Positions 16,619-62,258 of a stretch of DNA of 64,000 nucleotides are shown here, piece by piece (the first letter of the stretch is position 1; each line of letters starts with the position of its first letter). A program made the position numbers and the translations under genes. Below the pieces are notes generated by a model. It had not been told where the DNA came from, did not search any database, and worked only from the letters and a program-made list of their open reading frames with translations. Origin of the DNA: an uncultured archaeon (lineage in GTDB: Archaea; Nanobdellota; Nanobdellia; Woesearchaeales; UBA9642); NCBI GenBank assembly GCA_963777125.1, contig CAVZPN010000048.1:1-64000 (forward strand), written 5' to 3'.

Positions 16619-16875
16619 TTTAAAACCTCTAAAATACTATTTCACTATTAGTAATTGGCCAAATAAGCCAATATAATCAATATAAATCAAGTATCTGGGC
16701 AAAGAGTATAAAAATATTTGTTTTTTGAAGAAAGTAGTTTTCTTATAACACAGATTTATTAGAAATTTCGATGGACTCACGTTTTCGTGAGGACATCATT
16801 TTTACTAAATCCCAAAGAAACAAAGTTTCTTGGGCGCAAGAATTTTCAATTCTTTGCGTTTTTATAAAAAAATTT

Positions 16876-16958
16876 GCGGGGAAGAGGATTCGAACCCCTG
16901 AAGGCACTAAGCCAGAGGATTTTGAGTCCACCCCATTTGGCCACTTTGGTATCCCCGC
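16876..16958 (-). tRNA. tRNA-Leu, class II with long variable arm, anticodon CAA; no encoded CCA
   Basis: 7-bp acceptor stem GCGGGGA/UCCCCGC, T-arm AGGGG-TTCGAAT-CCTCT, variable arm GGC-TTAGT-GCC, anticodon loop CU-CAA-AA. One T-T mismatch in the anticodon stem. Confidence 0.7.
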
Positions 16959-26599: not shown

Positions 26600-27607
26600 T
26601 TAATCAGATACCATCGATAACTTAGGAAATCCGGTATATCCCATATATTCATAATTCTTAATTATCCCTGCAAACTTAATCATAATTTCTTCTAATATTT
26701 GCAAAAGATGAGATAAATCTTTAACAACTATTTCGCATTCAAAATCTGCTCCACCAATTGATTTATTTATTTGATAAAAATATTTATGATGCTTAATATA
26801 TTCAAATAGTTCTCTGTTCTTAGCCATAGAATTCAATGTAAAATCTACACGATATCCTTGATAACCTAATTTAGGCAAGTTTATATCTATTTTATATCCA
26901 ACGATAACTTTATTTTGTTCGAGTAATCGTATTCTTCGACGTACAGTCTCTATACTAACACCAGATTGCTTTGAAATAGTTTGTAAACTTTGACGTACAT
27001 CAGATACATATATTTTTAAAATAGTTTCATCAACACCATCATGTTCAACATAACCTTTCTCACCATACACTCTTGAAATTAATTCTTTATCTTCATAAAA
27101 AAATCTTTTATTAAAATTATATATCGGCGCATATATAGCAATTTTATGTTCTGAAATATACTCTTTATATTTTAACATGAGTTCATTCCAAATTTTATGA
27201 AACTTTTCAATATATTCGTCTCGCTTTATTCCTATAAAAAATGCAAAATCCCATTTTCCATGAAGTTCTGTTGTAGTCCATATATTTTCATAATTACCAA
27301 TATCTTCATAGAATTGCTTTTTTAATAATGCTGTTACATTTTGCCATTTAATATAAATTCTAAAAGTTAAATATCCAAATTTAGACATATCAACAATAGC
27401 TGTGAAGTTTCTAATAATACCTTGATTTACTAAACGATTTATTCTAAAATTGACTGTTTCTTTTGAACGTTTTACTTTTTTTGCTAAAATACTCACAGGA
27501 ATAGATGAATCTTTTTCTAGTTCGAATAAAATCTTCTTGTCAAGCAAATCTAATAACATACTAAGATATTTGAGCTTGAATTTAAATATTTTCCTATTAG
27601 AAACCAT
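26600..27607 (-). CDS. Tandem (duplicated) Lrp/AsnC-like regulator
   Basis: Two HTH+RAM-like halves, each ending in a KFGY/KLGY motif. Confidence 0.5.
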   Translation of the reverse strand: MVSNRKIFKFKLKYLSMLLDLLDKKILFELEKDSSIPVSILAKKVKRSKETVNFRINRLVNQGIIRNFTAIVDMSKFGYLTFRIYIKWQNVTALLKKQFYEDIGNYENIWTTTELHGKWDFAFFIGIKRDEYIEKFHKIWNELMLKYKEYISEHKIAIYAPIYNFNKRFFYEDKELISRVYGEKGYVEHDGVDETILKIYVSDVRQSLQTISKQSGVSIETVRRRIRLLEQNKVIVGYKIDINLPKLGYQGYRVDFTLNSMAKNRELFEYIKHHKYFYQINKSIGGADFECEIVVKDLSHLLQILEEIMIKFAGIIKNYEYMGYTGFPKLSMVSD

Positions 27608-29224: not shown

Positions 29225-31705
29225 ATGGCTGAAGATAAGAACATAAAACGAGTAAAAAGTGCGAGTGCAGATGATGCGAACATCGTCATGCAGACACTTG
29301 AAGAAGAGATGAAGAAATCTTATCTAGATTATGCAATGTCGGTAATTATCGGAAGAGCACTACCTGACGTTAAAGATGGCTTAAAACCAGTTCATAGAAG
29401 AATATTATATGCTATGAATGAATTAAATAATACTTATAATAAACCGTACAAGAAATGTGCAAGAATCGTTGGAGAAGTACTTGGTAAGTATCATCCTCAT
29501 GGCGATAGTGCAGTATACGATTCTATGGTTAGAATGGCTCAAGAATTCTCACTTAGATACCCGTTAGTGCAAGGTCAAGGAAATTTTGGTTCTATTGATG
29601 GAGATTCAGCTGCAGCAATGAGATATACTGAAGCGCGATTAGCTAAAATCTCTGATGAAATGCTACAAGATATAGATAAAGAAACAGTAGAATTTACACC
29701 AAATTTCGATGGTACATTAAAAGAACCTGCTGTTATGCCGAGTAAATTTCCTAATTTATTTATTAACGGAAGTAGCGGTATTGCTGTAGGTATGGCAACA
29801 AATATTCCTCCACACAATATTACTGAAATGTGCAGCGCAGTAATAAGTGCAATTGATAATCCAGATATTAGTACAGAAGAATTATTACAAATAGTTAAAG
29901 GTCCTGATTTTCCAACTGGCGCAGAAATTATTGGTAGAAGCGGAATAATTAGCGCATATAATACTGGTCGAGGAAGCGTTAGAATACGATCAGTAATTGA
30001 AATGGAAGAGAAAAAGGATAGAAAAAGATTAATTGTAAAAGAAATACCTTATCAAGTAAATAAAGCTCAATTAGTAGAAAACATTGCTGAATTAGTTAAA
30101 GAGAAAAAAATTCCTGAAATTAGCGATCTAAGAGATGAATCAGATAGAGATGGAGTTAGAATAGTAATTGAATTAAAAAGAGATGCAAATCCTGAAATAA
30201 TAAAAAATATGTTATATAAATATTCTAGATTAGAAGATAATTTTGGAATAAATGTTGTTGCAATTGTAAACAATGAACCTAAATTATTATCATTAAAATT
30301 ATATTTAAGACACTATATCGAGCATAGAATAGATGTTGTACGTAAGAGATGCATCTTTGATTTAAGAAAAGCTGAAGAAAGAGCACACATTCTTGAAGGA
30401 TTAAAATTAGCATTACATAATATTGACGATATTATTAATATTATCAGAAATAGCAAGAGTGCTGAAGATGATGCTAAAAAATCATTAATGGATAAATACA
30501 AATTTAGTGAAGCTCAAACTAATGCTATTTTAGAAATGAAAATAAGAAGACTTGCAATGCTTGAGCAAGAAAAAATAAATAACGAATATAGTGAATTAAA
30601 AGTGCAAATAACAGACTTGAAAGACATATTAAATTCCGAAACTAGAGTTAGAACAATAATCAAAACAGAAATGGATGAAATAATTCATACATATGGTAAA
30701 AATGATTCTCGTAAAACAAAAATTGTAGATGCTCCAGATGATGATAATGATTTTGAAATGGAAGATTTAATACCGAATGAAACTGTTGTAATAACAATGT
30801 CTCATTCGGGATATGTTAAAAGATTACCTATTGAAACATATAAAGTTCAAAATAGAGGCGGAAAAGGAGTAATGGCAACAGACTTAAAAGATGAAGATTA
30901 CATTGAAAGATTATTCATCGCAAAAACTCACTCTTACCTACTAATAATTACAAATAAAGGACAATTATATTGGCTTAAAGCGTATAAATTACCTGATGCA
31001 TCAAGACAATCTATGGGTAAAGCAATAGTTAATCTACTCGAATTAGAAGTTGATGAGAAAGTTAATGCAATAATACCAGTTGACGAATTTAATGATAAAC
31101 ATTACATTGTAATGGCAACCAAGAATGGAACTATTAAGAAAACAAATTTAATAGAATTCTCAAATCCAAGAAAAGGCGGAATTGCAGCAATAAATTTAGA
31201 TACTGAACTTAAAGATCAATTAGTAAATGTTGTAATGACTGATGGCACAAAAGACATAATGCTTGCAACAAAAAAAGGACTTGCATCAAGATTTAACGAA
31301 GAAGATGTAAGAGCAACAGGAAGAACAAGTCAAGGAGTTCGTGGAATAAGACTTGCAAAAGATGATTCTGTTGTAGGAATGATAATTGCTGAAGATAGTC
31401 ATCAAGTATTAACACTTACAGAAAATGGTTACGGTAAAAAAACAGATACAACAGAATATAGACAAATTAATAGAGGAGGAAAAGGTGTGAGAAACATACT
31501 TTGCTCTGAAAGAAACGGTAATGTTTCGGTAATATTATCTGTTACAGATACTGATGATGTATTATTCATATCAAAGAAAGGAATAATTATTAGAACGCCA
31601 TGCGATCAAATATCAACTGTTGGAAGAAGCACTCAAGGAGTAAGATTAATGAAACTTGGCGCAAGCGATAAAGCAATTAATATGACAAAGATATTGAAGG
31701 AATAA
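29225..31705 (+). CDS. gyrA: DNA gyrase subunit A
   Basis: [32 protein letters not shown] and active-site region; 826 aa; repeated beta-pinwheel C-terminal blades. Confidence 0.9.
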
Positions 31706-32211
31706 TGAAACTAAATCTCACAAAAGAAGAAATAAAAGAAACAGTATTACATTTTGGAGAAACAACTATATTACGAAATAATTATGAAAATAATATCCCT
31801 AATGTAGTAGTCGAAATATTCTTCGAAAAATACAACCATATAAAAATATATGGTCCGAGTTTAGAAACTTTCGGACAAATTTCTACTCACACATTTAAAA
31901 ACTTTTTAGAAAGAAACGGAACAATAGAAGCATTACTTACAGAAGATTTAGAATCTAATAAAAATTCACTTATTTCCAAATTCTATCTAGAATATCAAAA
32001 TAATATACAAATAAAATTCATTCAAGATAACAAATTAAAAATTTCAGAAGAAGATGAATATAGATCATATCTAATAATAGGAGATGAAAAAGGCTTTATT
32101 TTTAAACAACATCATAAAAAAGATTCTTCTAAAAGTTATATTTTTGATTCTTTAAACAACGCAAAACAAACCAATACATTAAATGAAATATTTAATCGTT
32201 TAAAAAATTAG
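31705..32211 (+). CDS. Hypothetical protein, paralogue 1, translationally coupled to gyrA
   Basis: Start ATG overlaps the gyrA stop by 1 nt (TAATG); about 40% identical to the next ORF. Confidence 0.5.
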   Translation: MKLNLTKEEIKETVLHFGETTILRNNYENNIPNVVVEIFFEKYNHIKIYGPSLETFGQISTHTFKNFLERNGTIEALLTEDLESNKNSLISKFYLEYQNNIQIKFIQDNKLKISEEDEYRSYLIIGDEKGFIFKQHHKKDSSKSYIFDSLNNAKQTNTLNEIFNRLKN

Positions 32212-32328: not shown

Positions 32329-32940
32329 ATGACTATGATATCTAAAGAAGACTTCGCAAGAAAAACAATAACAGAATGGGCAAGATTAAAAGAACCATGT
32401 ACGTATAAACCAACTTGCGAACACAATGTGCCAAGCATATTCTTAGAAACCTTTTTTAATAATTATAATAATATAAAATTATACGGTTCGAGCCTAGAAG
32501 CTTTTGGAAATCTTCCAACTCAAACATTTAAAGACTTTTTAGATAGAAATGGAACACTTGAATTACTACTTACAGAAAAATTAGAACCGCATTCTATTGA
32601 AACTCCTTCACTTATTTCTAAATTTTTAACAAAATATGAGAAAAACATAACTGTAAACCATGTAGATTTACAAATAATTAAAAATAAAATAGTAGAAAAA
32701 CAGAATCAGAAAAAAAGCAGTTTAATTGAAGAAATAAAAGCACTTGATACACCTAAATTTGAAGAAGAACCAGAAGAAGACTATGAGGAGTATTTTATAA
32801 CCGCAGATGATTCAGCATTTATTTTCAAAGAACATCATAAATATAACCCTAAAAGTTACTTTTTTTATTCTTTTAACAATATAGAAGAAGCTGCTAAATT
32901 AAATAACGCATTTGAGTATTTTAAAACTTTGAAAAATTAA
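32329..32940 (+). CDS. Hypothetical protein, paralogue 2 of the gyrA-coupled gene
   Basis: Shared blocks F(F/L)E.(F/Y)N.IK.YG.SLE.FG ... F.(D/N)FL.RNGT.E.LLTE.LE and C-terminal IFK.HHK...KSY.F.S.NN. Confidence 0.5.
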   Translation: MTMISKEDFARKTITEWARLKEPCTYKPTCEHNVPSIFLETFFNNYNNIKLYGSSLEAFGNLPTQTFKDFLDRNGTLELLLTEKLEPHSIETPSLISKFLTKYEKNITVNHVDLQIIKNKIVEKQNQKKSSLIEEIKALDTPKFEEEPEEDYEEYFITADDSAFIFKEHHKYNPKSYFFYSFNNIEEAAKLNNAFEYFKTLKN

Positions 32941-33827
32941 TAACAAATACACTTATTCTAAGATAATAAAATAATTATAAATCAAAGTATAGTTTAATAA
33001 GATACCAGAATAATATTAAAAAAAATAAAAAAATAACCTAACATGTATTAAATCCCTGATTTTTTCGACTATTAATGTCCCGTCCAATACTTTGCATTTT
33101 TCACTAAAACAATTAATCTTCAAGTTTTACTATTGACGATTGTTGAAATTGTTACGACGTTTTGTTGCTATTCATATACTATTTTGTCGTATGCCAATTC
33201 CAGGCCCCATCTTTTTGGTCTTATGAAGATCTTTTAGGGTTCTAGTTTTGCCTTTAAAAAACACTGTTAAATGTTTTTTGCCGTTAAACACATTTTTCAG
33301 GCTAACTTTACTAAGTCCTTGTGCACTATTGTGCGAACTTAATTATAGTCTATACCTCAGTTTTCTAATACTGTTTGTAGTTAGGCATTTTTTATTTCGT
33401 GTTATGTTACTGTTGTCCTTTACGAACTGATGTTTCTTTGCCTTTTTTCTTTCTCTTTTTCCCAAGATTTCTCTGTTTGTCATTTGCGTCATTACTAGTC
33501 ATAAAAATTTCTTTTTATAACGTCATTACTCATTTTTTTGATAAACGGAGTTGGAATGTGAATGGGCCCCCCTAAAGCAAAACTTTAGGAGGTCAGGATT
33601 GCGTGAATACTTTTAGTGTAACTTCGAGTATCTTTCACAATGATGCGGAGGCGATAAACAAGTTTGATGAAATGTTTTACTTATCTACATTTGAAACGTT
33701 TCGGGAATAAAACCAAAGTCTTGCTTTCAGATCCTATTTGTTCGTAACTGACGTTTTAATAGCCTTCGGCTTTGGTCCAAATTAATGGGCTTTGAAGGGT
33801 TGAAACATGCATTAAACCATTCAATGA

Positions 33828-34727
33828 TTAATTTAATGTTTCTACTAGGGTCTTTAATGTTTTATCCAAGTCTTCTAACTTCTCTACTACTTTCGTTTGA
33901 GGTTCAACAGATTTGAAAAAGCTGTATTTATCATACAAATTTTGCATTATCTGTTTACATTCTACAATTGTTGCTGTTATGGACTCTTTTTTCCAATCCG
34001 TTTTCTTATGATCGAATGTCTCTAACATTTCAATCATTCTTGAGAGTGAAAAATTAATACCGTTCAGTATTAATTCTATGCGTAAACTACTGTTTTGTTT
34101 TTGTTCTGTAGTAAGTTTTGTTGTTGCGTGTTCAATATTTTGTAACGCTAATTTGAACATACTTAATGATTGTTCGAAATTTTTTACTTCATTACTAATT
34201 TTTTTTGTTGATTTTGAACTTTCAAGTATTGTTTTGATATCGTTTCTAAATATATACAATTCTGAAATTGCACTATTTGTTGATTCTTCAAAACTTAATT
34301 CTTCAACTTCATATAATATTTCTTCTTGTTTTACTGCGATTATCTTTGCGATAAACACACCTAGCATTGCGATACTAAATATTGCTTCAATCACAACAAA
34401 TAACTTGGAATAACCAAATGGTACAATATCATTGTAACCTATAGTCATTGCTGTAATAAAACTAAAATACATACTATTTCCAAAACCGATTACATCTTTG
34501 GTTAACGGTTCATTATTGCTTGTTAGGGGATGATTAGTAAATGTGAGTCCAAAAAATATTATTCCGAAAAATAATATGCCAACTAGCCATAGTCCTATAA
34601 CTTGAAGTAAGCTGAGCCTGTCAAGTATTGTGAACTGCTTCATTTTCGTTATGGACGTTACTGTTTGTTCGGTTTCAATCGAACATGGATGTTTGGATGT
34701 ATCTAGGTATACGCTTTTGTATACCAA
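33828..34727 (-). CDS. Two-TM potassium-channel-like pore protein with degenerate selectivity filter (TIGYND) and long coiled-coil cytoplasmic tail
   Basis: Outer helix, pore helix, AMTIGYNDIVP (versus canonical T-V/I-G-Y-G-D) and inner helix pattern as in KcsA-type channels. Confidence 0.5.
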   Translation of the reverse strand: MVYKSVYLDTSKHPCSIETEQTVTSITKMKQFTILDRLSLLQVIGLWLVGILFFGIIFFGLTFTNHPLTSNNEPLTKDVIGFGNSMYFSFITAMTIGYNDIVPFGYSKLFVVIEAIFSIAMLGVFIAKIIAVKQEEILYEVEELSFEESTNSAISELYIFRNDIKTILESSKSTKKISNEVKNFEQSLSMFKLALQNIEHATTKLTTEQKQNSSLRIELILNGINFSLSRMIEMLETFDHKKTDWKKESITATIVECKQIMQNLYDKYSFFKSVEPQTKVVEKLEDLDKTLKTLVETLN

Positions 34728-38152: not shown

Positions 38153-39133
38153 ATGTATCAAAAAAATAAAGAAAGAAAAGATATTTCTACAATTAACCTT
38201 GATTTAAAGGATAAAAAGTTATTACTAGAATTATTTAGCACAGAAAAAAAGTCGAAAATAGAATTAAGCAAAAAGATACTAATTTCAAAAGAAATGCTAA
38301 GTTATAGAGTTAAAAGATTAAAATCAGAAAACATATTACAAAATATTTCTCCAATAATAGATTATTCAAAACTAGGATACCATATTTATAGACTGCAAAT
38401 AAGATATAATTCTATAACACTAGAAAAAAAACAAGAAATCATAAAGTACCTAGAACAAATACCTGAATTAAGCTGGCTTGTGGAACTTGCAGGACCATGG
38501 GATATTGCAATAGGATTTATGATTAGAAATACTGAAGATTTTGAAAAAATATACTCTGATATTATGAAAAATTATGGTAGCATTATACAAAACAAATTAT
38601 TTACAATTATAACAAGTATAGAACACTTATCGCCAAATTATATCTGCCCAGGAACTAGACAAAAACTTGTAACAGGAAAAAACTACGACAACATAATACT
38701 TGAAGAAAATGCAAAAAAGATTATACGAGAATTAAATAAAGATGGTCAATTAACACTAAGCGAACTTGCAAAAAGATTAAAAGTATCGATAAGTACAATA
38801 AAATATCACTTAGAATATTTAGAATTAAAACAAATAATTATAGGATATAAACCAAGCATAAACGCAGCAAAATTAGGTTTTGAACATTTTAAAGTAATGT
38901 TAGAATTAGAGGATATAAGTAAAAAAAATACTGCAAAGGAAATATTAGAACAAAACAATAACGTTACCTACATTACAGAATCATTAGGAAAATACGATTT
39001 AGAATTTGAAGCAGAATTCACAAAAATGGATGAAGTATTAAGACTTATAAAACAATTAAAAGATCAAATAGAATTAAGAAATAGCGAAATAATATTTTCA
39101 AATAAAGAATTAATAGTGAGAGACATAATATGA
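38153..39133 (+). CDS. Tandem (duplicated) Lrp/AsnC-like regulator, paralogue of 26600-27607
   Basis: Two HTH+RAM halves (..YSKLGY, ..AAKLGF). Confidence 0.5.
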   Translation: MYQKNKERKDISTINLDLKDKKLLLELFSTEKKSKIELSKKILISKEMLSYRVKRLKSENILQNISPIIDYSKLGYHIYRLQIRYNSITLEKKQEIIKYLEQIPELSWLVELAGPWDIAIGFMIRNTEDFEKIYSDIMKNYGSIIQNKLFTIITSIEHLSPNYICPGTRQKLVTGKNYDNIILEENAKKIIRELNKDGQLTLSELAKRLKVSISTIKYHLEYLELKQIIIGYKPSINAAKLGFEHFKVMLELEDISKKNTAKEILEQNNNVTYITESLGKYDLEFEAEFTKMDEVLRLIKQLKDQIELRNSEIIFSNKELIVRDII

Positions 39134-42908: not shown

Positions 42909-42994
42909 ATATTTAAGATAAAAAAATTTAGAATAAAAAGGTTATGAATAAGAATAAAACAAATAATTATTAAGATAAATATTAAAAAGATCAT

Positions 42995-43182
42995 AAAAAT
43001 TCGCTGAAAGTGTCCTACTCCACACTAAAGTGCGAAGTTTGATCGAACACTTTCTTAATCGCGAATCCCCAAAAAATGCGTAGCATTTTTGGGCCCAAGA
43101 AAAGCACGGCTTTTCTGTGGGTTTTAGGATACAAAGAAAACCAAAGGTTTTCTTGTACAAAAAATTTATAATTTTTTTGTAC
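42995..43182. repeat. Structured multi-hairpin repeat element, copy A
   Basis: Shares AAAAAYTCGC ... CTTAATCGCGARTT frame and downstream hairpin modules with copies B and C. Confidence 0.7.
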
Positions 43183-43302
43183 TAAAAACGACAATTCATC
43201 TCCATATTAAAATATTGAGTTTTATTGTCGTTTTTATTATAAAACAAATGTATAGAAAATTAAATTAAAAATTTATTAAAAAAATAAAGAATAAAACGTA
43301 AC

Positions 43303-43527
43303 TTACTTACGTTTTGATTTAGGAGCCATAGCTTTTTCAATTTTTAGCTCTTCTTCTTCAATTCTTTTTGCTTCTAACTCGATATGATGAGTCATTTTCT
43401 CAATATTTTCATCCATTCTAGCAATTCTTCTTTCAAGTAATACTAGAACTCTTAAAGAATAAACTATTGCTGCTAAAGTTCCAATAATTATTGCTAATAT
43501 AACGTTATCCAAAGCCATTTTATACAC
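43303..43527 (-). CDS. Small TM plus coiled-coil protein
   Basis: N-terminal hydrophobic helix then charged heptads. Confidence 0.4.
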   Translation of the reverse strand: MYKMALDNVILAIIIGTLAAIVYSLRVLVLLERRIARMDENIEKMTHHIELEAKRIEEEELKIEKAMAPKSKRK

Positions 43528-43648
43528 CTCTATTTTTACAAACTCTGACTATGATAGAAATACATCCGCATAAGATGTTTATATATTTTGTGTTTATATG
43601 TACGAACTCGACCAAATTCATATAATTATATCATCTATTTAAAAGTAA

Positions 43649-44717: not shown

Positions 44718-44757
44718 AACAAAAAAATAATAAAAAAATAGAGTCTATTAATCAGAA

Positions 44758-44835
44758 TTACTTCTTCTTAACAATTTTCTTTACTGGCTTTTTTTCGACA
44801 GTCTTTTTTGAGCCACATCCGCAACTTCCACACAT
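44758..44835 (-). CDS. Possible micro-protein MCGSCGCGSKKTVEKKPVKKIVKKK (25 aa)
   Basis: Manual translation; AGGTGA Shine-Dalgarno-like motif 5-10 nt upstream; not in the ORF track. Confidence 0.25.
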   Translation of the reverse strand: MCGSCGCGSKKTVEKKPVKKIVKKK

Positions 44836-44939
44836 GATATCACCTCGCACAAATTATATGCTTTAATACATTAAGTAATAAAAACAGATTTTAAAAAATA
44901 GAATTAAATAAAAACGTAATTAAAAAAAATAAAACATAA

Positions 44940-45233
44940 TTAGATTATGTCTTCTTCTGCTAAAACAACAAAGTCACCGACAGCAATTACTGCTGAAAAT
45001 GGAACTAAAATGTTACCTTCCTTAGTTTTTTCTAACTCTAATTTTTCAATATAGGAAGTAGGATTTATTAATATAATATGTATTAATTCTCCTGTTCTTG
45101 CTTCAAATACTATATCTCCAACTTCACCGAATCTTTTTCCTGATTTAGATATTACAGTTTTTCCAATTAATTGTTTAGAAAATTTCTTATCGTCAGTCAT
45201 TCTTGGTTCTGATTTATTCATTACGTCTGCCAT
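44940..45233 (-). CDS. PRC-barrel domain protein
   Basis: LIGKTVISKSGKRFGEVGDIVFE pattern. Confidence 0.5.
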   Translation of the reverse strand: MADVMNKSEPRMTDDKKFSKQLIGKTVISKSGKRFGEVGDIVFEARTGELIHIILINPTSYIEKLELEKTKEGNILVPFSAVIAVGDFVVLAEEDII

Positions 45234-45429
45234 TACACATCACCTTAAGTATAAATTTTATCAATATTAGAGAATAAGAAAGCACGAATATATAAAGTTT
45301 ACTATTGAGAAGGACTAGGTTAAAATCATGGATGAGAGCATTTTAACATTTAGAACCTAAAAATAGATATATCTCTATAAAAATCGATAATTATTTAAAA
45401 CACCATTCCTATAATCTAGTAAGAAGAGG

Positions 45430-56331: not shown

Positions 56332-56788
56332 TTTGTATCCCCCTAAAGTTCTTACAAATATTTTTTATTGACTATATTTATGAACCACAGTAATTGCTTT
56401 AAGCAGTTCATTTATAAAGAGAAATAAAGAATGATTTATAAATACTTTTGTTTGTGCTTAAAATGAATTAGACTTCAGAGTTAAGTATAGCCCTCCAAAG
56501 GAAATAGAGGTATGTTGTCCCTTGTTGAGTGACAACCTATATTTCCTATGGAAAAGTACTTGTGCGTAAAAAACGCATTTATACGGCTTAAATAATACAA
56601 ATTCTAATCTAGTATACAAAAAAACACACTTTTTAACCCCTTCATTGTATATGGAACATTACTGAAAAGTGACATTAAAACAGAACTATTTTTAAGGAAA
56701 ATCAACATATAATTTATCAAAAACTATTTATCAAAAATAGCCTCAGTACCTATATATAGTCCTATACTTAACATCAAAATCATAAAAA

Positions 56789-61729: not shown

Positions 61730-61901
61730 TCGACGTAAAAACGATAAATTATTCTATAAAGAGCATAAAACAAAAAATAGCTTCTTGACTAACCGACTAT
61801 TAAATAACTTTTCTTCGACTACAAAAAACACGCAAAATAATAAACTTTATAAACTCGTTCCTCTAAGAACGATTACTATAACTCACAAAAGATGAGTTGG
61901 G

Positions 61902-62150
61902 GTGAATAAAATGGCTGAAGTAGTAGCAAAAGTCGGTGTAAAGAAGGAAAAGGGAATGTTATACTTTGTAGATAAACAAGGAGACATCTCTTGCGCAACA
62001 ATGGCTCGTGGCGGAAAAGCTAAAAAGGGCACAAAGAAAGTAGCAAAAGTCGGTGTTAAAAAACAATCCGGTTTCTTGTATTTCGTAGACAAGAAAGGTA
62101 ACGTTTCAAGAGCAAAAATGGCTCGTGGCGGCCGAAAGAAGAAGAAGTAA
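61902..62150 (+). CDS. Small basic protein made of two tandem 36-aa repeats
   Basis: VAKVGVKK(E/Q)xG(M/F)LYFVDK(Q/K)G(D/N)(I/V)SxAxMARGG(K/R) twice, ending RKKKK. Confidence 0.45.
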   Translation: MNKMAEVVAKVGVKKEKGMLYFVDKQGDISCATMARGGKAKKGTKKVAKVGVKKQSGFLYFVDKKGNVSRAKMARGGRKKKK

Positions 62151-62258
62151 ATTCTTTAGTATTTTTTTATTAAATTTTATAATACAAGAGGATAAAACCT
62201 CTTGGTGTTATTTTTCTATTATAACTTAGTCGGAATTAAGCATTTTAAAATATTATAA

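What the first reader, a model, noticed from the sequence alone, without database searches (positions are those of the whole stretch)
32941..33827. 887-bp ORF-free segment with locally elevated GC (about 38-45%) between convergent genes
In a genome where intergenic spacers are mostly under 300 bp and about 25% GC, this stretch is long, strand-skewed (T/G-rich on plus), has no ORF of 60 aa or more on either strand, and contains GC-rich blocks (for example GGGCCCCCCTAAAGC, GGAGGTCAGGATTGCGTG). Higher GC in an AT-rich archaeon is typical of structured RNA genes, but I could not find RNase P (AGGAAAGTCCGGGC), SRP helix-8 (CCGGAAGG..AGCAGC) or rRNA signatures. Alternatives are an unrecognised ncRNA, a decayed gene, or a foreign fragment.
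Basis: seen in the sequence. Interest (0 to 1): 0.55.

Follow-up and report, generated by a model that had tools for sequence, protein, structure and literature searches.

The report
New large structured RNA beside channel gene
The "empty" 887-bp gap encodes, on the minus strand, a conserved and highly folded non-coding RNA of about 0.8 kb that matches no described RNA family and in every relative examined lies directly after an unusual potassium-channel-like gene.

Summary
The gap is real and is the longest stretch of the window with no 100-codon open frame. Its GC was overstated: 31.5% overall, with peaks of 37-38%. It is not a spacer, a pseudogene or foreign DNA.

About 820 nt (33838 to 33018, minus strand) are conserved in 26 distinct Woesearchaeota-type contigs. 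Blocks of 20-55 nt are nearly invariant. Substitutions show no codon periodicity and most indels are not multiples of three.

Nucleotide covariation supports 16 counted helices. In the 3' domain, 95% of cells are paired against 29-46% in slid controls, and 36 of 56 pairs carry compensatory changes. No shuffle out of 500 reaches the observed values. Invariant G-U pairs fix the strand.

The RNA starts with a covarying hairpin that contains the stop codon of a 2-TM channel-like gene (filter GYN instead of GYG). It ends in oligo-T runs. Its parts are a 5' domain, an A-rich linker with 2-6 GURAYGAC repeats, and a multi-helix 3' domain.

Rfam 15, phage and plasmid collections, and the literature search gave no match.

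Best reading: a new class of large archaeal ncRNA, probably co-transcribed with the channel-like gene and acting with its protein. That would resemble OLE RNA and OapA. The function is inferred, not shown.

The parts
33018..33838 (-). The whole conserved RNA element, about 820 nt. It runs from the hairpin that contains the channel gene's stop codon to the second oligo-T run.
   Evidence: blastn and nhmmer find it collinear and full-length in 25 distinct loci, and it is also present in L077. Alignments are A1, A2, A3 and A4. Substitutions fall evenly over positions mod 3 (2118/1968/2019) and indel lengths mod 3 are 342/209/108.
33810..33838 (-). Hairpin P0. Its 5' strand contains the UAA stop codon (33828-33830) of the channel-like ORF.
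   Evidence: RNAfold of the junction predicts a stop-codon-containing hairpin in nearly all of the 26 loci. The stems differ by paired changes: UUAAGCA/UGCUUGA, UUAAACA/UGUUUAA, UGAGCA/UGCUCA, AAUCA/UGGUU. This was read by eye and has no statistical control.
33565..33805 (-). 5' domain. It contains:
- helix P1 (33794-33798 with 33763-33767), which encloses hairpin P1a (33786-33789 with 33776-33779);
- the near-invariant block GAAAGCAAGACUUUGGUUUUAUUCCC (33703-33728);
- a tentative hairpin with a UGAC-containing loop;
- the short hairpin AUACU/AGUAU, whose loop holds an optional insertion in some relatives;
- the 17-nt block AGUAUUCACGCAAUCCU (33595-33611), invariant in all 25 aligned loci and changed only in the distant L077;
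- the hairpin CCUCCUAAAG/CUUUAGGGGG (33583-33592 with 33568-33577).
   Evidence: RNAalifold gives 24 pairs, 10 of them compensatory. Pair counting on A4 gives 92% of cells paired against 38-58% for slid controls, and 12 of 24 pairs with changes on both sides against 3-6. No shuffle out of 500 reaches the observed values. The AUACU/AGUAU hairpin comes from the 12-sequence RNAalifold run and was not counted with controls.
33391..33564 (-). A-rich linker (about 50% A) carrying repeats of a GURAYGAC-like motif. In the window these are GUAAUGAC at 33522-33529 and 33488-33495, and AAAUGAC at 33479-33485. Conserved UGGGAAAAAGAG (33453-33464) and GUUCGUAAAGGAC (33415-33427) follow.
   Evidence: The motif RAYRAC occurs 85 times in 26 linkers, against 14.3 expected from shuffles and a maximum shuffled total of 29. 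There are 2-6 copies per linker except in L077, often 9-10 nt apart.
33037..33385 (-). 3' domain. It is closed by helix H0, CCUAAC/GUUAGG (33380-33385 with 33037-33042), followed by stacked helices:
- H1: 33366-33370 with 33046-33050;
- H2: 33357-33361 with 33055-33059;
- H3, GACUAU/AUAGUC: 33345-33350 with 33067-33072.

Inside lie:
- hairpin H4 with tip GCAC-AAUA-GUGC (33310-33343);
- helix Hx (33298-33302 with 33082-33086);
- hairpin H6 with the near-invariant loop region CAUCUAACAGUG (33256-33279; CAUUUAACAGUG in the window);
- a long arm formed by H5b, H5, H7, H8 and H9 (33103-33246).
   Evidence: RNAalifold gives 51 pairs, 33 of them compensatory. Counting 56 pairs in 9 helices gives 95.0% paired against 29-46% for slid controls, and 36 pairs with changes on both sides against 5-12. 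No shuffle out of 500 reaches the observed values. Three further helices give 79% paired against 29-48%, with 16 of 20 pairs compensatory and again no shuffle out of 500. G-U pairs invariant in 23-24 of 24 sequences fix the strand. In L019 the closing helix is wholly replaced by AAUAAAAU/AUUUUAUU. H0 was not counted with controls. Model R1 finds exactly one copy in the window.
33018..33033 (-). Two oligo-T runs (T7 at 33027-33033 and T8 at 33018-33025) just after the closing helix. This is the likely archaeal transcription terminator and RNA 3' end.
   Evidence: Runs of 5 or more T, usually two of them, follow the closing helix in 20 of 25 loci. That oligo-T tracts terminate archaeal transcription is my own background knowledge. 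The 3' end itself has not been mapped.
33828..34727 (-). Upstream partner gene: a 2-TM potassium-channel-like protein. Public gene calls start it at Met29 (34643). Its filter reads TIGYND (34428-34445), and it has a conserved C-terminal helical domain of about 165 aa that includes WKKES (33981-33995).
   Evidence: Pfam Ion_trans_2 matches at E 5.6e-10. Forty-one homologues were found among 5.8 billion proteins. The alignment is A5. The filter was read in all loci. The AlphaFold2 model has mean pLDDT 85.6. The gene lies directly 5' of the RNA on the same strand in every locus.
32941..33017 (.). AT-rich spacer between the RNA's terminator and the stop of the 203-aa plus-strand gene. It is not conserved and is not part of the element.
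   Evidence: Alignments with relatives break down after the T-runs.

Best explanation
The segment encodes a previously undescribed large, highly structured non-coding RNA of about 0.8 kb on the minus strand.

It has three parts: a structured 5' domain, an A-rich linker carrying several GURAYGAC repeats, and a 3' domain of at least 13 helices. A closing helix abuts an oligo-T terminator.

The structure begins with a hairpin that contains the stop codon of the upstream 2-TM channel-like gene. No conserved promoter-like box lies in between. The RNA is therefore most likely made as the 3' continuation of that gene's transcript, and may be processed from it afterwards.

I infer that the RNA works together with the channel-like protein as a ribonucleoprotein. 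The protein's conserved cytoplasmic helical domain, or another protein, would bind the RNA and hold it at the membrane. The RNA would then either regulate the channel or use it as an anchor. This is analogous to bacterial OLE RNA with the membrane protein OapA.

Shown: conservation, non-coding character, strand, secondary structure, boundaries, invariable adjacency to the channel gene, and absence from known families.

Inferred: co-transcription, physical or functional coupling to the protein, and every biochemical activity.
For: Conservation:
- The spacer is 73-79% identical in close relatives and collinear in 25 distinct loci that are all below 95% identical to one another.
- It is also present in L077, where the channel protein is only 43% identical.

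Non-coding character:
- Substitutions by position mod 3 are 2118/1968/2019, against 253/141/537 in the adjacent coding sequence.
- Most indels are not multiples of three.
- The conceptual translation has no Pfam hit.

Structure:
- In the 3' domain, 56 pairs are 95% paired against 29-46% for slid controls, and 36 pairs are compensatory. No shuffle out of 500 reaches the observed values.
- Twenty further pairs are 79% paired against 29-48%, with 16 compensatory.
- In the 5' domain, 24 pairs are 92% paired against 38-58%.
- The minus-strand fold has z = -4.35, against -1.57 for the plus strand.
- Invariant G-U pairs fix the strand.

Ends:
- A covarying hairpin contains the stop codon.
- T-runs follow the closing helix in 20 of 25 loci.

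Linkage:
- The RNA lies directly 3' of the channel gene on the same strand in every locus with enough sequence. This includes 14 loci found by a DNA motif alone, without reference to the protein.
- Channel identities range from 37% to 100%, while the genes on the far side vary.
- The channel family is itself small: 41 proteins among 5.8 billion.

Repeats: 85 motif copies against 14.3 expected.

Not a known family: no hit in Rfam 15 at gathering or E-value thresholds, in the window or in 6 homologous loci.

Precedent: OLE RNA forms a membrane-localised RNP (abstracts of PMC12265935 and PMC9723947).
Against: - There are no transcript data, so co-transcription and the RNA's 5' end are unproven. 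A promoter inside the channel ORF cannot be excluded.
- All loci come from one fairly narrow clade (GyrA 70-92% identical) in which wider gene order is also conserved: Tyw1-like gene, channel, RNA, gyrA. Adjacency could therefore be inherited synteny rather than functional coupling.
- The channel's C-terminal domain is an acidic to neutral helical bundle with no recognisable RNA-binding fold. The best Foldseek hit against the PDB has E = 0.008, to lipid-binding bundles.
- The P1 and P1a helices never vary, so covariation says nothing about them.
- No helix linking the two domains was found.
Confidence: 0.5

Rival explanations
1. It is an independent trans-acting RNA, such as a ribozyme, a scaffold or a protein sponge that uses the GURAYGAC repeats. 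On this reading its position after the channel gene is only inherited gene order in a narrow clade.
For: - Wider synteny is also conserved in these contigs: Tyw1-like gene, channel, RNA, gyrA.
- Repeated single-stranded motifs resemble protein-titrating RNAs.
- The channel's C-terminal domain shows no RNA-binding fold.
Against: - The RNA abuts the stop codon with no spacing, and a structured hairpin includes that stop codon.
- Genes are inserted or lost on the other side of the RNA and upstream of the channel, but never between the channel and the RNA.
- No conserved TATA-like box is visible upstream of the first conserved helix. This rests on reading the alignments.
Confidence: 0.2
2. It is a cis-acting 3' UTR of the channel mRNA. 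It would control that mRNA's stability, localisation or translation, for example as an ion-sensing or exonuclease-blocking structure, and would have no role of its own.
For: It has the same strand and contiguity with the ORF, a hairpin that includes the stop codon, and a terminator at its end.
Against: About 800 nt with at least 16 helices and many invariant single-stranded blocks is far beyond what known 3' stabilisers need. From my own knowledge, cis-regulatory riboswitches are 5' elements of 50-250 nt. The RNA is conserved at least as well as the protein it follows: 73-79% nucleotide identity where the protein is 72-83% identical.
Confidence: 0.15
3. It is a very divergent housekeeping RNA that Rfam models fail to recognise, most plausibly RNase P RNA. 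RNase P RNA should exist in DPANN genomes because they lack the protein-only enzyme HARP.
For: - PMC6380272 states that the RNase P RNP is near-universal in Archaea and that HARP is absent from DPANN.
- No RNase P RNA was found in the 64-kb window.
- There are faint motif echoes: GAGGUAUAGAC against GAGGAAAGUCC, and GGGACAUUA preceding the 3' strand of helix H3 against ACAGAA preceding the 3' strand of P4. The RNase P motifs are recalled from memory.
Against: - No RNase P, SRP or other Rfam family scored in the element, in the window (E up to 10) or in six homologous loci (E up to 1).
- All long-range helices are strictly nested (H0 to H3), whereas RNase P has the crossing P2/P4 arrangement (my own knowledge of the RNase P fold).
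- The element is two to three times as long as archaeal RNase P RNA, and has an extra 5' domain and a repeat-bearing linker.
- The window is only a small part of the genome, so absence of RNase P RNA from it says little.
Confidence: 0.08
4. It is a decayed protein-coding gene. Minus frame 0 has only 13 stop codons, against 25 and 37 in the other two minus frames.
For: Stop codons are depleted in one minus-strand frame.
Against: - Substitutions show no codon-position bias, and most indels are not multiples of three.
- The translation has no Pfam hit at E up to 10.
- Blocks of 20-55 nt are nearly invariant and alternate with variable loops.
- Extensive base-pair covariation is present.
- The element stays free of a conserved ORF in all relatives.
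Confidence: 0.01
5. It is a foreign or mobile fragment, such as a phage, plasmid, intron or IS remnant.
For: None beyond its composition differing from typical spacers.
Against: - It occupies the same chromosomal position in all 26 lineages.
- It is a single copy in the window.
- blastn found no match in the phage or plasmid collections.
- No copy was found in the IMG/VR loci that three short-motif scans brought in.
- No group I or group II intron model matched.
Confidence: 0.01

Closest known systems
OLE RNA with OapA (Bacillota; Rfam RF01071)
   Same: - Both are large (about 600 nt against about 800 nt), ornate and strongly conserved non-coding RNAs of unknown biochemistry.
- In both, highly conserved single-stranded blocks sit between covarying helices.
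- Both are encoded next to a membrane-protein gene. From my own knowledge, OLE RNA is co-transcribed with it.
- OLE RNP localises to the membrane (PMC12265935 and PMC9723947).
   Different: - There is no sequence or structure match to the OLE model.
- The host is an archaeon, not a bacterium.
- The partner here is a 2-TM K-channel-like protein, not OapA.
- From my own knowledge, OLE lies upstream of oapA, whereas this RNA follows its gene and overlaps the stop codon.
- Any RNA-protein contact here is untested.
GOLLD, ROOL, raiA and HEARO: other large bacterial or phage ncRNA classes
   Same: They fall in a similar size class, were discovered by comparative genomics, have multi-helix folds supported by covariation, and mostly have unknown functions (bioRxiv 10.1101/2024.12.08.627333 and PMC10861870).
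   Different: - No Rfam match.
- Those RNAs are bacterial or phage-borne, and from my own knowledge often mobile or linked to tRNA clusters.
- This one is chromosomal, single-copy, archaeal and tied to one gene.
Archaeal RNase P RNA (RF00373)
   Same: It is a conserved, multi-helix archaeal RNA with a central helix flanked by invariant purine-rich strands. Such an RNA is expected to exist in these genomes.
   Different: - No covariance-model hit.
- The topology is nested, without the crossing P2/P4 arrangement.
- No CR-I or CR-V sequences were recognised.
- It is two to three times longer.
- It has an extra 5' domain and a repeat linker.
Group I intron core (R and S elements forming P7)
   Same: Helix H3 with its flanks (..AUAGACUAUAA.. 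and ..UAAUAGUCG..) resembles the R (..CAGACUAAA..) and S (..AUAUAGUCC..) elements that form P7. The intron sequences are recalled from memory.
   Different: - It is not inserted in a host gene.
- It has no P3/P7 pseudoknot order. Three arms lie between the two strands, where a group I intron has P3' and P8.
- The Intron_gpI model does not match.
- I treat the resemblance as coincidence.
Protein-titrating RNAs with repeated short motifs (CsrB/RsmZ type)
   Same: The linker carries 2-6 copies of one short motif in an A-rich, apparently unstructured stretch.
   Different: - The motif differs: GURAYGAC against GGA.
- The repeats are embedded in a much larger structured RNA.
- The binding protein is unknown.

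Membership tests
Any Rfam 15 family (4227 covariance models) | Score at or above the family's gathering threshold, or at least a listed E-value match | tested here: not met
   A gathering scan of the whole window found only a tRNA at 16875-16958. An E-value scan (up to 10) of 32700-34100 gave three spurious hits of 12-17 bits: mir-1264, snoU83D and RAGATH-8. An E-value scan (up to 1) of six homologous loci gave no hits. The listed E-values are multiplied by the number of families, so very weak single-family similarity would not be shown.
Archaeal RNase P RNA | P4 helix formed by the CR-I and CR-V regions and crossing P2 (a pseudoknot) | tested here: not met
   All long-range helices supported by covariation (H0 to H3, Hx, H5b, H5) are strictly nested. 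No CR-I or CR-V consensus sequence was recognised on reading the alignments.
Archaeal RNase P RNA | Cleaves pre-tRNA 5' leaders, and is the only RNase P RNA in the genome | not testable with these tools
   This needs whole-genome covariance-model scans of the source genomes and biochemistry.
Archaeal SRP RNA | Match to the SRP covariance model and the conserved helix 8 motif | tested here: not met
   No SRP family appeared. I did not search for the helix 8 sequence separately.
Group I intron | Inserted in a host gene, with flanking exons | tested here: not met
   The element lies in an intergenic position, after a stop codon and before a terminator, in all loci.
Group I intron | Core order P3-P4-P6-P7-P3'-P8-P7' with the P3/P7 pseudoknot | tested here: not met
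   The P7-like helix H3 encloses H4, Hx, H6 and the long arm. The outer strands pair in a nested way. No Intron_gpI hit was found.
OLE RNA | Match to the OLE covariance model; found in Bacillota; adjacent to oapA | tested here: not met
   No Rfam hit. The host is a Woesearchaeota-type archaeon. The neighbouring gene is an Ion_trans_2 protein. The similarity is one of kind only.
Protein-coding gene or pseudogene | Codon-position bias of substitutions and indels in multiples of three | tested here: not met
   Substitutions are 2118/1968/2019 against 253/141/537 in the coding control. Indel lengths mod 3 are 342/209/108. The conceptual translation has no Pfam hit.
Structured non-coding RNA (generic) | Base pairs kept through compensatory changes, beyond shuffled and slid controls | tested here: met
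   Searches cover 100 pairs in 16 helices. Of these, 64 pairs have changes on both sides. No shuffle out of 500 reaches the observed value on any of the five measures in any of the three tests. Slid controls are 29-58% paired, against 79-95% observed.
Structured non-coding RNA (generic) | Transcribed as a stable RNA | not testable with these tools
   No transcriptome data are available. The terminator-like T-runs are only suggestive.

The most novel reading that the evidence does not exclude
This would be an archaeal counterpart, by convergence, of the OLE RNP. A 0.8-kb ornate RNA is made as the tail of the mRNA for a tetrameric, non-canonical (GYN-filter) channel-like protein. The RNA then assembles with that protein's cytoplasmic helical domains. 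The 3-4 GURAYGAC repeats typical of most linkers might match the four subunits. The result would be a membrane-bound RNA-channel complex in which the RNA senses or gates. It would be the first RNA subunit of an ion channel, and the first large ncRNA class of unknown function specific to DPANN archaea.
Probability: 0.2. Interest if true: 0.92.

Novelty: categorically new. Interest (0 to 1): 0.8.

Why it matters
Large, intricately folded RNAs above 500 nt are rare outside the ribosome. To my knowledge the described classes of unknown function are essentially all bacterial or phage-borne. The known large RNAs with assigned functions (rRNA, RNase P, group I and II introns, tmRNA) are ribozymes or core machinery.

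An 0.8-kb RNA carrying this much invariant sequence and this many covarying helices would therefore be a new candidate ribozyme or RNP scaffold in Archaea. Its hosts are small-genome DPANN archaea, and my literature searches found no large non-coding RNA of unknown function described in them.

Its unbroken link to an atypical channel-like membrane protein gives a concrete, testable hypothesis: an RNA-membrane protein complex. It also gives a handle for experiments through heterologous co-expression, even though the hosts are uncultivated.

More practically, it shows that ORF-free gaps in DPANN genomes can hold RNA genes that are invisible to Rfam.

Tried and rejected
- **Pseudogene.** Minus frame 0 is depleted in stop codons (13 against 25 and 37). 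The translation has no Pfam hit and there is no codon periodicity. Rejected.
- **Rfam.** Gathering and E-value scans of the window and of six relatives found nothing.
- **RNase P and SRP.** No covariance-model hit, and the nested topology is incompatible with the crossing P2/P4 arrangement. Kept only as a low-probability rival.
- **Group I intron.** The R/S-like resemblance of helix H3 was considered. Rejected on topology, genomic context and the lack of a model hit.
- **Repeats.** No other copy of the element appears in the window.
- **The 17-mer scan.** AGTATTCACGCAATCCT gave 2 viral and 55 metagenome loci. Thirty-six of these 57 have no real match to the element and lie in unrelated DNA of 24-69% GC. 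They are chance matches.
- **More IMG/VR scans.** Two further motif scans gave 19 loci. None holds the RNA; the best match has E = 0.12.
- **Phage and plasmid blastn.** No match.
- **Inter-domain and pseudoknot helices.** A column-pair covariation scan was noisy. The candidate UUUGGUUUU/AAAACUAGA is contradicted by L009 and L013. A single-pair scan did lead to helix Hx, which held up.
- **K-turn and C/D-box motifs.** I looked by eye in the H7/H8 internal loop and in the linker and found no convincing match.
- **Channel protein fold.** Foldseek against the PDB gave no hit below E = 0.008. The top hits were lipid-binding helical bundles, weak translin matches at 12 Å rmsd, and Kir pores. This gives no evidence for an RNA-binding domain.
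- **Literature.** Three searches found no description of such an RNA. A fourth search failed on syntax.
Full report
**1. The observation**

The segment 32941-33827 lies between the stop of a plus-strand 203-aa ORF (32329-32940) and the stop of a minus-strand 299-aa ORF (33828-34727), so the flanking genes are convergent. It is the longest stretch of the window with no open frame of 100 codons: 887 nt, against 707 nt for the next longest.

The segment is 31.5% GC, and 200-nt windows peak at 37-38%. The window mean is 27.9% and coding regions reach 40-41%. The plus strand is T-rich but not G-rich. One ORF of exactly 60 aa with a TTG start exists on the plus strand.

The two quoted GC-rich strings are present, at 33564-33578 and 33588-33605. 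They turn out to be the antisense of two of the best-conserved parts of an RNA.

**2. Not a known RNA, not a gene remnant**

Rfam 15 finds only a tRNA in the whole window. At permissive thresholds it finds nothing credible in 32700-34100.

One minus-strand frame is depleted in stop codons (13, against 25 and 37 in the other two). Its translation nevertheless has no Pfam hit. As RNA, the minus strand folds much better than shuffled sequence (z = -4.35). The plus strand does not (z = -1.57).

**3. Relatives**

The upstream ORF is a 2-TM channel-like protein (Pfam Ion_trans_2, E 5.6e-10). A scan of reference genomes found one relative, a Candidatus Woesearchaeota MAG (L001). There the channel gene is followed by an 809-nt ORF-free gap and then gyrA.

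blastn aligns window 34823-32993 to L001 at 74% identity. The spacer is therefore as conserved as the gene next to it. The pairwise alignment shows perfectly conserved blocks of 30-55 nt. It shows indels of 1, 2, 4, 6, 9 and 23 nt. It also shows a hairpin whose stem changes by paired substitutions.

The protein has only 41 homologues among 5.8 billion clustered proteins. Contigs for eleven of them all show an ORF-free gap of 0.8-1.8 kb after the gene.

A 17-nt block is invariant in all of these except the most distant one (L077). It was used to scan metagenomes independently of the protein. Of the 55 loci returned, 21 carry the element. The other 34 are chance matches in unrelated DNA.

Altogether there are 25 full-length copies, all below 95% identical to one another. 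A 26th is in L077, where the channel is 43% identical and the 17-mer is altered.

**4. It does not code for protein**

Substitutions relative to the window fall evenly on positions 1, 2 and 3 (2118/1968/2019). In the adjacent channel coding sequence the same test gives 253/141/537. Indel lengths are mostly not multiples of three (342/209/108 for lengths mod 3 = 1, 2, 0).

**5. It is structured, on the minus strand**

RNAalifold on 12 full-length sequences gave 83 pairs, 35 of them with compensatory changes.

| Test | Pairs | Cells paired | Slid controls | Pairs with both-side changes | Slid controls |
|---|---|---|---|---|---|
| 3' domain, 24 sequences (A3), 9 helices | 56 | 95.0% | 29-46% | 36 | 5-12 |
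| 3' domain, three helices added from a covariation scan and by eye | 20 | 79% | 29-48% | 16 | 5-9 |
| 5' domain, 25 sequences (A4), 4 helices | 24 | 92% | 38-58% | 12 | 3-6 |

In all three tests, no shuffle out of 500 reached the observed value on any of the five measures.

In the 5' domain, almost all of the signal comes from one hairpin. Helices P1 and P1a never vary, so covariation says nothing about them. Several G-U pairs are invariant in 23-24 of 24 sequences. They would be A-C mismatches on the other strand, so the RNA is read from the minus strand.

In L019 the helix that closes the 3' domain is entirely replaced: AAUAAAAU/AUUUUAUU instead of CCUAAC/GUUAGG.

**6. Anatomy (window coordinates)**

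- **(a) Hairpin P0, 33838-33810.** Its 5' strand contains the channel's UAA stop codon (33830-33828). Equivalent hairpins with covarying stems occur in nearly all loci.
- **(b) 5' domain, 33805-33565.**
  - P1 and P1a.
  - The near-invariant block GAAAGCAAGACUUUGGUUUUAUUCCC.
  - A tentative hairpin with a UGAC-containing loop.
  - A short hairpin (AUACU/AGUAU) whose loop carries an optional inserted subdomain in some relatives.
  - The 17-nt block AGUAUUCACGCAAUCCU, invariant in all 25 aligned loci.
  - The hairpin 33592-33568.
- **(c) A-rich linker, 33564-33391.** It holds GURAYGAC-like repeats. The motif occurs 85 times in 26 linkers, against 14.3 expected and a maximum shuffled total of 29. 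Copies are often 9-10 nt apart. Conserved UGGGAAAAAGAG and GUUCGUAAAGGAC follow.
- **(d) 3' domain, 33385-33037.** Four stacked outer helices (H0 to H3) lead to hairpin H4, helix Hx, hairpin H6 with a near-invariant loop region (CAUCUAACAGUG in most; CAUUUAACAGUG in the window), and a long arm (H5b, H5, H7, H8, H9).
- **(e) Two oligo-T runs, 33033-33018.** T-runs follow the closing helix in 20 of 25 loci. From my own knowledge, this fits an archaeal terminator.

**7. Context**

In every locus with enough sequence, the RNA lies directly after the channel-like gene on the same strand. This includes 14 loci recovered by the DNA motif alone. Channel identities range from 100% down to 37%.

The other flank varies:
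- gyrA directly;
- a NUDIX gene;
- one to three unrelated genes;
- in the window itself, two paralogous genes of 168 and 203 aa that relatives lack at this position.

No conserved TATA-like box is visible between the end of the ORF and the first conserved helix (alignments). The spacing from stop codon to P1 is nearly constant.

These facts argue that the RNA is transcribed as the continuation of the channel mRNA. No transcript data were available, so this is an inference.

**8. The partner protein**

In all close relatives the selectivity-filter position reads TIGYND rather than the canonical GYG. Only distant members keep GYG.

The AlphaFold2 model (mean pLDDT 85.6) shows a 2-TM pore, a 65-residue helix continuing from the inner helix, and a helical bundle. 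Foldseek against the PDB gives nothing below E = 0.008 and no recognisable RNA-binding fold. The protein therefore offers no independent support for RNA binding.

**9. What it is not**

- **A mobile or foreign element.** It is single-copy in the window and fixed in position. It is absent from the phage and plasmid collections. None of the IMG/VR loci brought in by three short-motif scans carries it.
- **RNase P RNA.** This remains a formal rival, because DPANN archaea lack the protein-only enzyme and must have the RNA somewhere (PMC6380272). Several points argue against it:
  - no model hit;
  - nested rather than crossing long-range helices;
  - two to three times the expected length;
  - an extra 5' domain and a repeat linker.
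- **A group I intron.** The resemblance of helix H3 and its flanks to the group I R/S elements is, in my judgement, coincidental.

**10. Most likely mechanism**

This is a new class of large structured archaeal RNA. It is produced with the mRNA of an atypical channel-like membrane protein and most likely acts with that protein.

The closest analogy in kind is OLE RNA with OapA. OLE RNA is also a large ornate RNA, and it forms a membrane-localised RNP (PMC12265935 and PMC9723947). From my own knowledge, its gene lies next to oapA. Membership of the OLE family itself was tested and not met.

My confidence, part by part:
- About 0.95 that this is a functional structured RNA on the minus strand.
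- About 0.6 that it is co-transcribed with the channel gene.
- About 0.4-0.5 that it is functionally coupled to the channel protein.
- About 0.2 for the specific RNA-channel complex.

The alternatives are an independent trans-acting RNA, a cis-acting 3' UTR, or a divergent housekeeping RNA. They are listed with the results that would separate them.

**11. Verdict**

It is not explained by any described family. I rate it a new RNA class (no family membership, analogy only) and score interest at 0.8. The main weaknesses are the lack of expression data and the narrow clade sampled.

Noticed in passing
window 34428-34445 (-), within the gene 33828-34727: The channel-like protein has TIGYND where K+ channels have T-x-G-Y-G-D. 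GYN is conserved in all close relatives. Distant ones read TLGYGN (L077) or TLGYAN (L041). The protein may therefore not be a K+-selective channel.
   Followed up: partly
window 31705-32211 and 32329-32940 (+): Two tandem paralogous genes of 168 and 203 aa are 40% identical to each other and have no Pfam hit. They lie between gyrA and the RNA only in this genome. Relatives have gyrA, a NUDIX gene or other genes at this position.
   Followed up: partly
window 42942-43648, 44718-45414, 61730-62258, 56372-56788: These are further long stretches (707, 697, 529 and 417 nt) with no 100-codon open frame. Rfam found nothing in them. They could hold other unrecognised RNAs or short genes. 61922-62131 contains a 117-nt tandem duplication.
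   Followed up: no
L015 4039-6323 and L016 2545-4829: In these two relatives gyrA carries an intein (Pfam Intein_splicing). The window's gyrA (29225-31705) does not.
   Followed up: no
L009, L013, L019, L032, L041, L054, L055, L061, L075 (5' domain; A4 columns about 200-440): An optional inserted subdomain is present in some lineages and absent from the window. It sits inside the loop of the AUACU/AGUAU hairpin. It includes the hairpin AAAGUUCAGUCAYU..UUCGGAACUUU and, in many of these lineages, the motif CCCAUAACGAAAA.
   Followed up: partly
window 33248-33430 (+): A 60-aa ORF with a TTG start lies antisense to the RNA's 3' domain. I did not examine it further and treat it as a chance ORF.
   Followed up: partly
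window 26600-27607 (-) and 38153-39133 (+): Two paralogous ORFs of about 330 aa flank the region. From reading their sequences they look like tandem Lrp/AsnC- or TrmB-type winged-helix regulators, but I did not test this. Similar genes occur near the locus in relatives (L014, L018, L077).
   Followed up: no
window 16875-16958 (-): This is the only Rfam hit in the window: a tRNA spanning 84 nt, longer than the 71-position model. It may be a class II tRNA or contain an intron.
   Followed up: no
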